64,000 bases of DNA, taken from Octopus vulgaris. Its lineage: Eukaryota. The notes below the pieces were generated by a model, which saw nothing but the letters and a program-made list of their open reading frames with translations, had not been told where the DNA came from and searched no databases. The stretch lies in NCBI GenBank assembly GCA_951406725.2, contig OX597826.1, positions 31,558,001-31,622,000 of the forward strand, given 5' to 3'. Each line of letters starts with the position of its first letter. Position 1 is the stretch's first letter. A program made the position numbers and the translations under genes. This document shows positions 1 to 59,661 of the stretch, one piece after another.

Positions 1-110
1 CACGACGATCGTTTCGGCTTAGATCTTCACTGCTCCCTAGTGGGTGGGAAACGATACAATGGTATCGAATGCACTCCACAGTGCAGAAAACGCCTCATCA
101 GGTTACATAA
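1..110 (-). ncRNA. Hammerhead ribozyme (type I-like) with branched stem II; 3' strand of stem I cut off by the window edge
   Basis: Minus strand: CTGATGA(101-95)-GGC...GCC-GAAAC-GATC-GTC. Confidence 0.7.
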
Positions 111-837
111 TGCAGTATTATAATATATACACTTCGCTACTGTGTAAGGCGGATGAAGATTGTAGGATGCGTGACTTTATAGAAATGTAAGATCCAAAGA
201 TCAGGATGTAGGAAGAAAGTTAGCTTCAAGCAATCCGTAGCGAATATAAAAAGACAATTTTCAGGAACAATAGTAGTTTTTTGAGGCGGAAGGTTGTGGA
301 TATTTCCTGTCGAAAGACGGTAAGCTGAAACAATTTTTTTTTTTATATTTCACAATAGGCAGCCAAGGTTGCCGGGTATGCGAAAAAGAATATAGGAGTT
401 AAGAAATGGAGTAGATAATATTCGGGCTACATATATTTCATAGGGTGCGGAACCTCGGAAGTGGTAAATATCCAAATGAGGTGTATACCGCAGGCTACTG
501 GTTAGGCCAAGGCTTTGTTGATTAAATGAAGTTTGCATTGTCGTAATGAGGTACATATTAACACACGGCGGATTCTGACTGAATCTTCCATGTGTTAACA
601 TATAGCTCCTTGCGTCAATGTAAATTTCATTTAATCAAAATATTCTTGGCCTGTGGTATAAACCTCGCCTAGATATTTACCATTCCGAGTTTCCACTCAC
701 TATGAAACAGATGCAGCCCGGATCTTATCTATTCCTCTTTTAACCCCTATATATATATATATATATATATATATATATATATATATATATATATATATAT
801 ATATATATACGAGAAAGAAGCAACAAGAATGGATTAG

Positions 838-930
838 TTTTTAGTACAATTGTTTCATACAAAGACAGGCTTTATTACAAGTTGCAAAAATTGCAGCAGA
901 TAAAAGTGTCCCGTACTCATCAGCTAAAAT
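838..930 (-). ncRNA. Hammerhead ribozyme, intact core
   Basis: TTTTAG-CTGATGA-long stem II-GAAAC-AATT-GTA-CTAAAA; 6-bp stem I, palindromic loop III. Confidence 0.85.
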
Positions 931-1397
931 ACATTTGAGTTCTCTAGACATCTTAGTGGGTGAGGTTATACTCATGAAATATTGGAGATAGTTCCATTAG
1001 AGGCAGATATAGGTTGTAAACAGTTTTCCAAAGTTCCTTAATGATGATGCACAGTCTTATCACAGATTTTTAAAAACTTATTAGTTTCGAAGAGAAGATG
1101 AATCAATCCATAGTGTAGATTTAAATTTCCAGAGATATGAGAAGGATGATGCACAGACTTATCACAGGTTTCACCCCACATTACTGTATGGATAACACCA
1201 TATAGTTTTTCTGGTGCATCTAAGTTAAGTACCACATTCAAGTAAATTCATTGGAATTTACTTGAATCTTAATTGCTTTGATATATATATATATATATAT
1301 ATATATATATATATATATATATATATATATATATATATATATATATATATATATGTATGTATGTATGTATGTATGTATATATTCTTTTATTTTTTAT

Positions 1398-1836
1398 ACT
1401 TTTATTTGTTTCAGTCATTTGACTGCGGCCATGCTGGAGCACAGCCTTTAGTCGAATGAATCAACCCCAGGACTTATTCTTTGTAAGCCTAGTATTTGTC
1501 GAACAGTTAAGTTACGCGGACGTAAATACACCACCATCGGTTATCAAGCGATGGTGGGGGAAAACACTCACACACAAACATATACACACATACACATACA
1601 TACATACATACATACATACATACATACATTATACATACATACGTACATACATACATACATACATACATACAAACGTACATACATATATATACGATGGGCT
1701 TCTTTCATTTTCCGTCTACCAAATCCACTCACAAGGCTTTGGTCGGCCGAGGCTATAGTAGAAGACACTTGCCCAAGGTTCCACGCAGTGAGACTGAACC
1801 CAGAACCATGTGGTTGGTAAGCAAGCTACTTACTAC
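1398..1836 (-). mobile_element. SINE family 1 copy
   Basis: Reverse-complement match to 6407-6827. Confidence 0.85.
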
Positions 1837-56250: not shown

Positions 56251-57780
56251 TGTAACAACATGGATATTTTAGAACTTCTCTTCAAATTTGTTATTTTTAT
56301 TTACCTAAAAGAATATTTGAAAGAGAAAAAACAAAACAAAACATTAATTGAATGAGTAAAATTATTCACATCTATTCTGTTAGCAGATATATTTTAAAAC
56401 GGTTATTACATTAACATCGGACATTTTAGGCAAAAAGCTATATTTTCCTTGCAAGAATGGAACAGGTTTTTCAAGGATAATTTCTTTTGATCGGTTCTCA
56501 GAGCTTCTCCGAGAATGTCGACATTTTTGTCTACCACAAATCCTCTTTAGACCGCCAACATGGAATTTTCACGGACCGCACCGCCCCACTGGTTGAGGGT
56601 TGTGGGGGCATTTTAGATTTCAAGCACCCTATTTCTGTCTATGCTTCTCGACAGCAATTCTGTGAATGAGACAAGCTGCGGAAAAGCGTGTTTCATAAAT
56701 GGCGACATCACCTGCCCCCACTAAGAAATTGCTGGAGATGTGTCCTGAGCGGATGTCTGTGCATCATAATTCACTGCATGACCAGTCCTCTTCGTAGTGG
56801 ATGATACAAAATGGTTCCTGGGTTTCTAATATCTATTGTGCAGAACCTACTGACGTTGTGATGGTGGTGTTGGTGGTGGTATCGTCACTTTTGATCCCAA
56901 CGTCGCCATTTGCTGCAACGGTTGTGCTCGGGTTGCTGACGATAGTGATGATGTCACTGTAGCTGTCATTTTTCTTCACTTTCGACGTACGGGTGTATTG
57001 AGATTGGAATAAGTCGATGTAAAATTAAAACAAACAAAATGAGAAACGTCAAAGCAGAGTCCGTGTGAATAAAAATTACAGAAAAAGACACGATAAATAT
57101 GAGAACAAGATGTATACGAGGGTAGATAACATTACTCACTGTCCAAAAGTCGGCATTCCCATAGTCAGATTCCGTATTCAAAGCAATAGACAACTGAAGT
57201 AGTAAACAATTTGCACAGAACAATAGACTCACATGTGTAAGACACACATTCTAAGCATCCTATTAATATAAAGCACAAAATCTATACAAATCAAACAGAA
57301 CATATGTTATGCACAGACAGACACAAAACCCAATAAGATAATGCAACTCGAACTATGAACTTAAACTGTAGGTCAGAAGAAACACTAAACTAACACCAGA
57401 GACAATGAAACCAAACAGCATTGAAGGAAAAAAATACAAATCAATATACAAATTTTGCACCAAGAAAAGAAAGAAAAATCTGCACGCCCATCAGGTACAC
57501 AGGGATGAACCAGGTGGTGCAGTAGAAACTAACTGTAAACTGTTGAAAACATTATAATAGTAGCAGGCTACAAGATTGACATTAAAGTAGATATAGCAAC
57601 AAAAGATATTAATGATTGATTTTTACATTTTCTAAATCAGCACAATCTAAATACAAATAACATTGCATTGATATATCTGGTGACCATAACATTGACAACA
57701 TGAATAACTGCTTCATAAAAAACACTGTTTTCTTTCAACCCCTTGATACATTTCAGGCAAACTTTCCAAGTTTATTCTGG

Positions 57781-59034
57781 TATATATGCACACATGTTAG
57801 AAGTATATAGACACCTCATAAAACATCGTTTTCTGTTTATTCTAACTTGTGAAGGTTTACATTCTTTATTAATTGTCATTTTTATGTTTCAGATACTATA
57901 TGTGACTGTTTAATCATGCCATGTACAAATGAAGCCTTGGAACTGTCTGAATTTCAAAGAGGCCGTTTTGTGGGTCATTCAGAAGGTGGATATAGTCAGC
58001 GTAAAATCGCAGAAAACCTTGGGATCCCGCTTTCTACGGTTAATAGGGTGATTGTGCAATTCACCAGAGAGGGGAAGTAGTCAACATCACCTTGTCCAGA
58101 TCAACCAGGGCCCTCTGACAGGACCCTTGTCTTTGCTAAGGGAAGTGTGGAGGATAATCCTCGTTGCAAGACCTCTGGCATAGCAGAGCAAGTTGATGTC
58201 ACTCTCAGAACAGCTGTCAGGTATCTCGACGAACTCAGTTACTATAGTAGAGCAGGAAGAAGGAAGCAACATCTTTGACCAGCCAATATGAAACGGAGAA
58301 AAGATTAGGCCAGTGAAAATGGGGGAGAGGCCATTAGCATTTTGGGACACTGTCATATTCTCCGATGAGTTCAGATTTGCTGTATTTCCTAACAGTGGTC
58401 GAGTGTGGGTCTGAAGACTCTGTGATCAAGAATTTGATGTGAAAAGTTTGCAACCAGCAATGAAACACAGCAGTGGTCTAGGGAACGATTTGGAGCAATG
58501 GTTTATCAGAGCTGGTGGAGTGTGAGGGAAAGATAAACTCAAATAAATATGTGTCCATATTGCACTCCATTTGGACTCTTTCCAAACTTCTCCAGTGGTG
58601 AAATGATTAAAGAAGACTCCATTTATGGAAGATGGGATTCCTTGTCACACGGTTAAAATGACCCAAGATTTGTTGGAAAAGAATGGCTTTAGAAAACTTC
58701 CTTAGCCAAGCCAGTCACCAGATATGAACCCTATAGAACACCTTTGGGGCATAATGGACAGGAGATTTCATAAACAGAACAAGAAAGCATCTTCAAAGCC
58801 AGATCTTTTGAGATTATTGCATAAAACTTAGCAAGAAATTACGCAAGAGAATATTCACCATCAGATCAGTAACATGCCTAATAGGGTCCTAGCATTGTAA
58901 AATGAAAAGAGCATGTCTACTGAATATTAAATGTTCACATTATAACAACTAGCAAATAATTTGCATGTATAATTTCAGATTTAAATAAATTTTGATAATT
59001 ATAAGGGTGTCTATTTACTTCTTTCATGTCACCT
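57781..59034 (+). mobile_element. Tc1/mariner DNA transposon remnant (transposase pseudogene about 57916-58930)
   Basis: [12 protein letters not shown]...[53 protein letters not shown] with stops; imperfect TIR (agaagtatatagacacc / ggtgtctatttacttct). Confidence 0.85.
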
Positions 59035-59620
59035 AGAAAGTTACCCTCCGAGGCACAAGTCTGGGCAAGGTTGTTTATGGAAGACCAGCAGTCGCGCATG
59101 CATACTGGCCTCCCCTCTCCATGCCACCGATGTTATCCAAGGGAAAGGCAAAGGCCGATACAGCTTGGTACCAGTGACGTCGCAGCTCATTTATTAACGT
59201 GCAAGTGGCTGAGCACTCCACAGAACGTGTACCCTTAACGTAGTTCTCGGGGAGAATCAGCGTGACACAGAGTGTGACAAGGCTGGCCCCTTTGAAATAC
59301 AGGTACAACAGAAACAAGAAGAAAGAGTGAGAGAAAGTTGTGGTGAATGAGTACGGCAGGGTTCATCGTGGAACTTTAGGTGCTTTCGCTCAATAAACAC
59401 TCACAATGCCCGGTCTGGGAATCGAGACCGCGATCCTACGACCGCGAGTCTCCTTCCCTAACCACTGAGCCATTGCGCGTCCACACTCACACACATATAT
59501 AAATATAAATATATATATATATATAAATGTATATATATATAAAAATGTATATAAAAATGTATATATATATATATATATAAGAAAAAAGGTTTGAAAATGC
59601 AATTTAAACGATGTTTATTT

Positions 59621-59661
59621 ACTTAACCGGTTTCACTCTTTGGTAAAAGATTGTCAAAAGT
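59621..59661 (-). ncRNA. Decayed hammerhead in the inverted pLTR
   Basis: ACTT-TTGACAA (from CTGACGA)-TCTTT/AAAGA-GT-GAAAC-CG-GTT-AAGT. Confidence 0.55.

What the first reader, a model, noticed from the sequence alone, without database searches (positions are those of the whole stretch)
1..59661. Archipelago of about 18 hammerhead ribozyme motifs in short PLE-derived modules, many inserted at (TA)n
Seen: CUGANGA...GAAA-N-loop-NUH motifs with complementary stems at 1-110, 838-930, 5159-5244, 5455-5503, 10936-10986, 16055-16196, 22096-22135, both arms of 22352-22473, 23355-23392, 24978-25070, 28914-28952, 29133-29216, 45326-45360, 47950-48067, 51981-52018, 52590-52662 and 59621-59661. Most have a 1-2-bp stem III capped by a palindromic loop (GATC, AATT, AGCT, ATAT, CG). 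Established: PLE pseudo-LTRs carry minimal type I HHRs with this geometry, proposed to cleave as dimers. Inference: many distinct families of non-autonomous, retrozyme-like pLTR modules have colonised this genome at roughly one per 3-4 kb, largely via TA microsatellites.
Basis: partly seen in the sequence, partly recalled or inferred. Interest (0 to 1): 0.8.

Follow-up and report, generated by a model that had tools for sequence, protein, structure and literature searches.

The report
Penelope retrotransposon ribozyme scraps in octopus
About ten of the eighteen listed motifs have the sequence and stems of hammerhead ribozymes, most of them ending just before a TA repeat, and they are likely the leftover tail ends of known Penelope-like jumping genes in what is likely an octopus genome, not a new kind of small RNA element.

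Summary
Partly confirmed. Of the 18 motifs, 6 have an intact core and all three stems, 1 is intact but cut by the window edge, 3 have one core change, and 8 are relics or unproven. One further motif was missed (32663-32764). Enrichment is real: 8 motifs score 4 or more, against 0.5 in shuffles. A model built only from foreign Hydra-clade Penelope (PLE) loci finds 5 at E of 0.004 or less. In 7 of 8 well-supported insertions, (TA)n lies within 60 nt 3' of the cleavage site (background 5.5%). The retrozyme reading is not supported: no motif is in a tandem, family members have different 5' ends, and one family flanks Hydra-type RT-endonuclease ORFs. Three insertions carry the inverted tail typical of PLEs. 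Best reading: these are 3' ends of heavily 5'-truncated PLE insertions at TA microsatellites, copied from uncleaved RNA. Hydra PLEs with hammerheads and (TA)n targeting, including an octopus family, are published. The less ordinary points are 53-87 nt stem II regions in six motifs and a two-copy family with a changed core base (A6 to U). Cleavage is untested.

The parts
1..110 (-). Hammerhead with intact core, 79-nt branched stem II region, palindromic stem III and GUC site; stem I cut by the window edge
   Evidence: score 2.5, stem I 2 bp visible; stem II region z -2.1
810..1280 (-). 470-bp non-coding module between two (TA)n arrays; intact hammerhead 839-929 with 60-nt stem II region; 36-nt tail, then (TA)n
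   Evidence: (E 8e-6)
2823..5296 (+). Element A: 5'-truncated Hydra-type PLE (RT 3' part and GIY-YIG region, stop at 4537), about 620-nt 3' UTR, intact hammerhead 5159-5244, 59-nt tail, then (TA)14
   Evidence: (E 0.004)
5455..5503 (-). Relic: intact core halves, no stem I, ends at a (TC)n run; unproven
   Evidence: E 9.6
10915..11120 (-). Module with intact hammerhead 10936-10986 (U.U at the base of stem II, 3-bp stem III), 29 nt from (TA)n; same family as 22352
   Evidence: 98.6% over 71 bp; E 2e-4
14200..15030 (-). Element C: Hydra-type EN remnant with CxCx5C linker; no hammerhead detected in the 190 nt after its ORF
15867..16196 (-). 3' half of a hammerhead (about 16055-16090) with a long tail that recurs at 17597-17783 and ends there at (TA)n; 5' half unproven
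21376..22186 (+). Element E: EN remnant of the DKG (Neptune-like) type; decayed hammerhead 22096-22135 about 290 nt after it; (TA)n 59 nt downstream
22352..22481 (.). Head-to-head inverted pair of intact hammerheads (22364-22414 minus, 22411-22461 plus); perfect 108-bp palindrome; left arm joined to (TA)n
   Evidence: (both E 2e-5)
23265..23420 (-). Hammerhead-like motif 23355-23392 with A6 to U core and 4-bp stem II; about 100-nt tail, then (TA)n; family with 28914
   Evidence: (80% over 121 bp)
24978..25070 (-). Relic: intact core halves, 65-nt stem II region, no stem I; unproven
28822..29025 (-). Second copy of the A6 to U family (28914-28952), bracketed by (TA)n
29077..29287 (-). 210-bp module: hammerhead 29133-29216 (G12A, 53-nt stem II region), 56-nt tail at (TA)29, and about 30 bp of the tail inverted at the far end; family of 5159 and 47950
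32610..32764 (-).
   Evidence: (E 0.085)
45325..45361 (+). Weak candidate with 2-bp stem II, in low-depth sequence outside element B's family; unproven
   Evidence: depth 203 against 25,000-195,000; score 2.8
45484..47708 (-). Element B: frameshifted Hydra-type PLE ORF (RW and DKT motifs, YRDD), C-terminal end and 3' pLTR missing
47895..48220 (-). Segment upstream of element B with hammerhead 47950-48067 (U4C; 87-nt stem II region that holds a 19-bp triplication absent from other copies)
51978..52021 (-). Hammerhead with U4C and decayed stem III; stem I and the stem III region resemble the published Hydra-2_aMil motif
   Evidence: (E 2.7)
52590..52662 (+). Relic: 7-bp stem I and palindromic stem III but three core changes; unproven
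   Evidence: z -2.0
59574..60276 (-). 700-bp module: hammerhead 59621-59661 (U3-A8 variant, U.U, GUU), 46-nt tail at (TA)n, 28 bp of the tail inverted at 60249-60276; likely the inverted 5' arm of element D
   Evidence: (E 0.19)
61629..63957 (+). Element D: PLE RT-EN ORF in pieces, DKG motif and Cx4CxxC linker (Neptune-like); its 3' pLTR would lie beyond the window
6015..56250 (-). Host context: two tandem SLC22-type transporter genes (mapped exons 56250-36188 and 26134-6015); 10 of the 18 sites (the inverted pair counted once, the new site included) lie between their mapped exons

Best explanation
The supported motifs are type I hammerhead sequences that are likely the pseudo-LTR ribozymes of several Penelope-like retrotransposon families, mostly Hydra-clade, likely left behind as the 3' ends of heavily 5'-truncated insertions at TA microsatellites in what is likely an octopus genome.

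Shown in the sequence: the motifs, their families, their 20-60 nt tails ending at (TA)n, the inverted tails, and two motifs beside Hydra-type ORFs.

Inferred: the element's GIY-YIG nuclease nicks (TA)n, and the RT starts 20-60 nt (about 100 nt in one family) downstream of the ribozyme on an uncleaved transcript and usually stops after 60-700 nt. Priming from both nicked strands would give a long arm plus a short inverted arm, or two equal arms as at 22352. The ribozyme would cut precursor RNA only weakly, as a dimer through its self-complementary stem III or with help from the element's protein. Single inserted copies would be mostly inert and decay, which would account for the relics.
For: Polar (TA)n link: 7 of 8 well-supported insertions whose 3' side is visible have (TA)4 or longer within 60 nt 3' of the cleavage site, against 5.5% of background positions within 70 nt (binomial 1e-8). 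With 51981 added it is 7 of 9; at (TA)6 or longer it is 6 of 8 against 3.0%. All 8 keep sequence past the NUH site, so the template was not cut there.

Family link to ORFs: 5159, 29133 and 47950 align over motif and tail (z 5-18). 5159 ends element A, and 47950 lies 257 nt before the ORF of element B.

Foreign Hydra-type loci: 32 of 88 carry a strict motif, 41 sense and 7 antisense hits against 0-2 in 5 shuffles. A CM built from them finds 5 window motifs at E of 0.004 or less. U.U at the base of stem II occurs in 30 of 71 distinct motifs there and in the published table.

Inverted tails in 3 insertions. Inverted pairs also occur in L080, L082 and L086 and in Penelope-13_HM.

Depth in run X2 falls from 195,000 at the EN end to about 3,000 at the ORF start and is 129,000-171,000 over the upstream segment.

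Literature: PMC8557442, PMC4209133, PMC11167929.
Against: Only 4 of the 19 motifs (5159, 47950, 22096, 59621) lie beside a PLE ORF; the others are assigned by geometry and tail alone.

Covariation within the window's family is not significant: 3 of 18 pairs change on both sides, and 97 of 500 shuffles reach that.

Whether 47950 is element B's own pLTR is uncertain: X2 depth dips to 23,000 at 47895, and a loose end at 45503 resembles 47855-47880. The 3' UTR of A does not align with B's upstream segment outside motif and tail.

The tool warns that summed contig depth is no copy number, and depth over the upstream segment does not exceed the EN end, as pure truncation might predict.

Elements A and B lack the CxCx5C linker of the Hydra clade. 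Most motifs do not fold as hammerheads at minimum energy. No cleavage data exist for any of them.
Confidence: 0.8

Rival explanations
1. Some or most of the short modules are non-autonomous, retrozyme-like PLE derivatives that move as units through ribozyme-cut, circular RNAs, using a PLE's enzymes in trans; the window shows their solo copies.
For: 15 of the 19 motifs have no PLE ORF beside them. Modules of 155-470 bp bracketed by (TA)n exist. Solo monomers of retrozyme families are described, in proportions from 0 to 1 (bioRxiv 10.64898/2026.07.22.740005, passages).
Against: No tandem unit with a motif among 95 TRF rows or in the self-BLAST. Members of three families differ in their 5' ends. 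Tails run past the cleavage site. Element A has a 620-nt 3' UTR, so a truncated copy can lack ORF sequence.
Confidence: 0.13
2. The motifs are chance matches picked by eye from AT-rich, repeat-rich DNA.
For: With one core change allowed, shuffles give 12.5 hits per window against 19 observed. 8 of the 18 motifs are not separable from background one by one. Rfam finds nothing.
Against: The top-scoring set is far above shuffles, an independent CM finds it, and it shows family structure and a polar (TA)n link.
Confidence: 0.03
3. The ribozymes have been kept by the host as intronic cleavage elements that tune the SLC22 transporter pre-mRNAs.
For: Most sites lie in or near two minus-strand SLC22 genes and most are on the minus strand: 11 of 12 in a set chosen after the fact, p 0.006; 6 of 7 among the strongest, p 0.125.
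Against: The equivalent intron of the two paralogues holds different families (51981 and 52590 against 22096 and 22352). Many copies carry core changes. Intergenic copies show the same strand.
Confidence: 0.04

Closest known systems
Hydra-clade Penelope-like elements and their pLTR hammerheads (Craig et al. 2021, PMC8557442; includes Hydra-1_Obim from Octopus bimaculoides)
   Same: DKT and RW motifs, C-terminal GIY-YIG region, hammerhead near the 3' end, frequent U.U at the base of stem II, (TA)n targeting, inverted 5'-truncated copy.
   Different: Six window motifs have 53-87 nt stem II regions; all Hydra rows in the paper's table are short, and the longest row there is a spike-moss PLE-X motif of about 53 nt. 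Elements A and B lack the CxCx5C linker. The window's motifs do not match the listed Hydra-1_oBim motif by eye.
Minimal PLE hammerheads of metazoans (Cervera and de la Pena 2014, PMC4209133)
   Same: Type I topology, short self-complementary stem III, U3-A8 variant, thousands of mostly single motifs taken as truncated PLEs, pairs on opposite strands 100-700 bp apart.
   Different: Octopus is not named in the parts I read; long branched stem II regions and an A6 to U family are not described in those parts.
Non-LTR retrozymes (Cervera and de la Pena 2020, PMC7229834; Li et al. 2026, bioRxiv 10.64898/2026.07.22.740005)
   Same: Short non-coding units with a type I hammerhead, related to PLE pLTRs; a U.U stem II base is known from axolotl HHR_Amex2.
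   Different: Defined by tandem units that each carry a motif and by circular RNAs; no tandem in this window, ragged 5' ends, tails past the cleavage site.
PAc, a Poseidon PLE of Anolis (Frangieh et al. 2024, PMC11167929)
   Same: RT starts inside the RNA downstream of the ribozyme, both DNA strands are cut and extended, AT-rich targets, ribozyme cleavage not needed for insertion in vitro. This fits the tails and inverted arms seen here.
   Different: Different clade; its ribozyme overlaps the ORF start. Nothing of the kind was assayed for the window's elements.

Membership tests
Type I hammerhead ribozyme (PLE type) | Core CUGANGA ... GAAA ... NUH (or the U3-A8 variant) intact | tested here: met
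Type I hammerhead ribozyme (PLE type) | Stems I, II and III in type I order, beyond chance | tested here: met
   8 motifs at score 4 or more against 0.53 in 15 shuffles (score tuned after viewing); 3 against 0.02-0.23 with the untuned strict descriptor; CM E 8e-6 to 4e-3 for 5
Type I hammerhead ribozyme (PLE type) | Short, self-complementary stem III able to pair in a dimer | tested here: met
   Predicted self-duplexes of -6 to -12.8 kcal/mol for 6 stem III types; 5 of the 6 form no monomer hairpin
Type I hammerhead ribozyme (PLE type) | Covariation across copies | tested here: inconclusive
   3 of 18 pairs compensatory in a 3-copy family, 97 of 500 shuffles as high; strong in 43 foreign motifs, but those were chosen for pairing
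Type I hammerhead ribozyme (PLE type) | Self-cleavage after NUH | not testable with these tools
   Needs an assay
Rfam hammerhead families | Match at the curators' score | tested here: not met
   0 matches at gathering score; none at E up to 10 in two modules scanned alone; none among the 150 of 217 rows shown
Hydra-clade PLE (elements A, B, C) | DKT in place of DKG, and RW(K) motif | tested here: met
   B has RIRWL and DKT; A and C are truncated before this region
Hydra-clade PLE (elements A, B, C) | CxCx5C linker before the GIY-YIG domain | tested here: inconclusive
   Present in C; absent in both A and B, so A and B are Hydra-like rather than certain members
Hydra-clade PLE (elements A, B, C) | Hammerhead near the 3' end and insertion at (TA)n | tested here: met
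   Met for A: motif 622 nt after the stop, TA runs at both ends. B lacks its 3' end, and no motif was detected after C
Hydra-clade PLE (elements A, B, C) | Placement in the clade on an RT tree | not tested
   No tree built; profile scores only: 371 bits to the Hydra-type profile against 13 bits to the other clade's profile for B's RT
Non-LTR retrozyme | Two or more tandem units, each with a hammerhead | tested here: not met
   None in the window; the rest of the genome could not be searched
Non-LTR retrozyme | Fixed unit length, independent of an ORF | tested here: not met
   5' ends differ within the three multi-copy families; one family adjoins RT-EN ORFs
Non-LTR retrozyme | Expressed as unit-length circular RNA | not testable with these tools
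   Needs RNA data or a northern blot

The most novel reading that the evidence does not exclude
Octopus genomes hold one of the largest hidden loads of hammerhead ribozymes known, some 300,000-500,000 if this window's density held over a genome of about 2.7 Gb (size recalled), missed by Rfam because several lineages carry long, branched 53-87 nt stem II domains. These domains would be a working add-on (protein landing pad or folding switch) that lets single copies cleave host pre-mRNA. A sister family that spread with an A6 to U core would be natural proof that catalysis is dispensable for PLE mobility.
Probability: 0.25. Interest if true: 0.6.

Novelty: new member of a known kind. Interest (0 to 1): 0.3.

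Why it matters
As it stands, it extends a published pattern (PLE pLTR hammerheads, Hydra-clade (TA)n targeting, an octopus family already listed) to more families and shows how dense the debris is in one region. It is useful as a natural record of PLE insertion: tails past the cleavage site and inverted arms match the in vitro picture of internal, two-strand priming on uncleaved RNA. If the long stem II domains or the A6 to U family hold genome-wide, they would make the open question of what the ribozyme does for a PLE testable by comparing families within one genome.

Tried and rejected
No whole genome is held, so the genome-wide scan could not be run.

Rfam: nothing at gathering score; the weak hits shown are microsatellite or hairpin artefacts such as mir-297 and mir-3199. 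The repeat finder was swamped by microsatellites.

Sequencing runs: no RNA holder listed. Raw-read runs X22 and X23 laid only 17 and 41 reads, almost all under 90% alike, and gave no usable depth. The table of other letters showed 40 of 303 rows and not position 48060, so whether the 47950 family consensus has U4 is unknown.

An exact search for the 23355/28914 motif in viral contigs found 0. Three look-ups of earlier findings returned nothing. No A6 to U core appeared among 5 one-change hits or 72 distinct CM matches in the 88 foreign loci.

Rejected or unsupported ideas: that 47880-47820 encodes the missing EN C-terminus (no profile match; 145 of 300 shuffles score as high); that the 10936 family shares element C's 3' UTR, that 32663 belongs to the 29133 family, or that 22096 and 59621 are one family (z of 1.0 or less).

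Minimum-energy folding does not single the motifs out (z mostly above -2). The atlas search for the ORF at 60187-61689 gave no usable hit.

Lunse et al. (PMC5785218) is not held and is known here only through the review PMC6765202 (passages). Searches for 'hammerhead ribozyme' + 'octopus', 'cephalopod' + 'ribozyme' + 'retrotransposon' and 'long stem II' listed no genome-wide study of octopus hammerheads. The library lacks most subscription papers, and bioRxiv supplements could not be seen.

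
Full report
Setting. No genome is held for this window. Its host exons match Octopus SLC22 transporters at 45-90% identity in all 19 hits, and the best named relative of one PLE protein is from O. bimaculoides at 80%, so the window is likely octopus. Two tandem SLC22-type genes run on the minus strand, with mapped exons at 56250-36188 and 26134-6015. 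About 8.5 kb is microsatellite.

The observation. I read all 17 intervals (18 motifs) on both strands. A strict type I descriptor found 3 motifs against a mean of 0.02-0.23 in 100 block-wise dinucleotide shuffles. Allowing one stem mismatch and the published U3-A8 core gave 4 hits against 0.28 in 40 shuffles. Allowing one core change gave 19 against 12.5 in 12 shuffles, but 5 against 0.17 at score 7 or more.

An independent test. I fetched 88 loci of related PLEs from metagenomes and MAGs. A strict motif occurs in 32 of the 88, with 41 sense and 7 antisense hits against 0-2 in 5 shuffles. I aligned 43 of 47 distinct short motifs from them and built a covariance model without any window sequence. 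On the window it returned 22 matches at E up to 10. The top five are 839-929 (8e-6), both arms of 22352 (2e-5), 10936 (2e-4) and 5159 (4e-3). 29133, 51979, 23356 and 5457 fall at E 1.7-9.6 among 11 unlisted matches. Sites 1, 16055, 22096, 24978, 28914, 45326, 47950 and 52590 were not returned; the model penalises long stem II regions, and its E-values are rough. Rfam gives nothing at gathering score.

Tally of the 18: 6 intact, 1 intact but edge-cut, 3 with one core change, 8 relics or unproven, plus 1 new. That is about one supported insertion per 6 kb. The U.U pair at the base of stem II, which hides the 10936/22352 family from strict descriptors, is common in relatives: 30 of 71 distinct motifs and many rows of the published table (PMC8557442, File S2).

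Families and ends. 5159, 29133 and 47950 align over the motif and a tail of about 50 nt. Three of 18 pairs change on both sides, which 97 of 500 shuffles reach, so covariation is not shown. 10936 and 22352 are 98.6% identical over 71 bp, and 23355 and 28914 are 80% identical over 121 bp. In each family the 3' tail is shared and the 5' end differs. In 7 of 8 well-supported insertions whose 3' side is visible, (TA)4 or longer starts 20-60 nt past the cleavage site; 47950 is the exception, and 51981 would be a second. Background is 5.5% within 70 nt, and upstream distances for these sites are 105 nt or more (p 1e-8). Three insertions repeat the tail inverted at the far end: the perfect 108-bp palindrome at 22359-22466, about 30 bp at 29077-29110/29258-29287, and 28 bp at 59574-59601/60249-60276. 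As RNA the 22352 pair folds into one hairpin of -104 kcal/mol, which would block both ribozymes. No motif lies in a tandem array.

Links to coding elements. tblastn and profile searches map five PLE remnants. A (2823-4537, plus), B (45484-47708, minus) and C (14388-15030, minus) are of the Hydra type; D (61629-63957, plus) and E (21376-21804, plus) are of a DKG type with a Neptune-like linker in D. B has RW and DKT, C has CxCx5C, and A and B lack that linker. Motif 5159 closes A, 622 nt after the stop. 47950 lies 257 nt before B's ORF, as motifs flank the ORF in L011. Decayed 22096 follows E, and 59621 is joined to D's 5' region by its inverted tail. On 45230-49300, summed contig depth in run X2 falls from 195,000 at the EN end to about 3,000 at the ORF start and rises to 129,000-171,000 over 47678-48221. 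X11 has the same shape, and 7 of its contigs join 47750 to a CA/TA repeat. This is the profile of 5' truncation, though the tool warns that it is no copy number. Against a simple reading, depth dips to 23,000 at 47895 and a loose end at 45503 resembles 47855-47880, so the 47950 module may be a separate insertion next to B. Site 45326 lies in sequence of depth 203.

Mechanism. Shown: motifs, tails, (TA)n polarity, inverted arms, ORF neighbours. From the literature: Hydra PLEs carry hammerheads and insert at (TA)n, and PLE insertions are often truncated with an inverted 5' copy (PMC8557442; passages, section 11 and supplement parts). Most metazoan PLE motifs are single, taken as truncated copies, and cleave weakly and only as multimers (PMC4209133; parts 1-2 of 4). 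A purified PLE cuts and extends both strands, starts inside the RNA, and inserts without ribozyme cleavage, and its ribozyme needs the protein (PMC11167929; passages). Inferred: these insertions were primed at (TA)n on uncleaved RNA, stopped early, and sometimes primed twice; dimer pairing through stem III is energetically possible; solo copies then decay. I put this at 0.8. The retrozyme reading (PMC7229834, passages; bioRxiv 10.64898/2026.07.22.740005, part 1 of 5 and passages) fails both features that can be tested in the window, but short families moving in trans cannot be excluded (0.13).

What is less ordinary. Six supported motifs have stem II regions of 53-87 nt, most with further hairpins (z -1.0 to -3.9). 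Foreign motifs span 10-31 nt (that set was biased to short ones, but the descriptor allowed 130 nt and returned none over 25). A spike-moss PLE motif of about 53 nt is already listed as deviant, so length alone is not new. Both copies of the 23355/28914 family have U at core position 6 and end about 100 nt later at (TA)n; two copies cannot show that this is the family consensus. A recent O. vulgaris repeat annotation counts 31 recently active Penelope-like families and does not use the words hammerhead or ribozyme in its main text (PMC13282606; passages; its supplement was listed, not read). My searches listed no genome-wide study of octopus hammerheads, but one octopus Hydra motif is in print.

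Verdict. The cluster is real but was overcounted. It consists of new members of a known kind, and the retrozyme label is not earned. Interest 0.3.

Noticed in passing
window 60187-61689 (+): A 500-codon open frame directly upstream of and overlapping the RT-EN ORF of PLE element D; no Pfam match above cut-off and no atlas hit. It may be an ORF1 of a Neptune-like element.
   Followed up: partly
window 3194-4537 (+) and 45484-46155 (-): Hydra-type elements A and B share a cysteine-free, Asn-rich linker in place of CxCx5C, yet A is bracketed by TA runs; this bears on the published idea that the linker directs (TA)n targeting.
   Followed up: partly
window 23355-23392 and 28914-28952 (-): Both copies of one family have U at hammerhead core position 6 and the same tail length to (TA)n; no such core among 72 distinct foreign matches.
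   Followed up: partly
whole window: Motifs favour the minus strand, that of the SLC22 genes: 13 of 17 non-palindromic sites, 11 of 12 in an after-the-fact subset (p 0.006), 6 of 7 among the strongest (p 0.125).
   Followed up: partly
window 395-747, 44844-45148, 52028-52367: Three imperfect palindromes of 300-350 bp (66%, 69% and 82%), MITE-like; the last abuts the 51981 motif.
   Followed up: no
window 47750-47898: A high-depth segment just before element B's ORF that other contigs join to a CA/TA repeat at 47750 and to other sequence at 47898; a loose end at 45503 resembles 47855-47880. Its relation to the 47950 module is unresolved.
   Followed up: partly
window 6015-26134 (-): The second SLC22 gene copy shows no exons for residues after about 376 within the window, although 6 kb lie downstream of the last mapped exon; a long intron or a truncated copy.
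   Followed up: no
window 44320-44720: A GC-rich block of about 400 bp inside an AT-rich intron, open in two frames; not identified.
   Followed up: no
window 38830-40348 (-) and 8947-9813: Non-PLE LINE remnants: an RT ORF with RVT_1 and a PHD-like finger at 38830-40348, and a repeat at 8947-9399 that recurs at 34850-35303.
   Followed up: no
L080, L082-L087 (genome contigs) and L078, L079, L081, L088: Eleven contigs filed under bacterial genomes carry Hydra-type PLE ORFs, several with hammerheads; likely animal host DNA in those assemblies.
   Followed up: no
window 7977-8050 (+): A short remnant that matches the C-terminal profile of the Hydra-type endonuclease (E 0.008).
   Followed up: no
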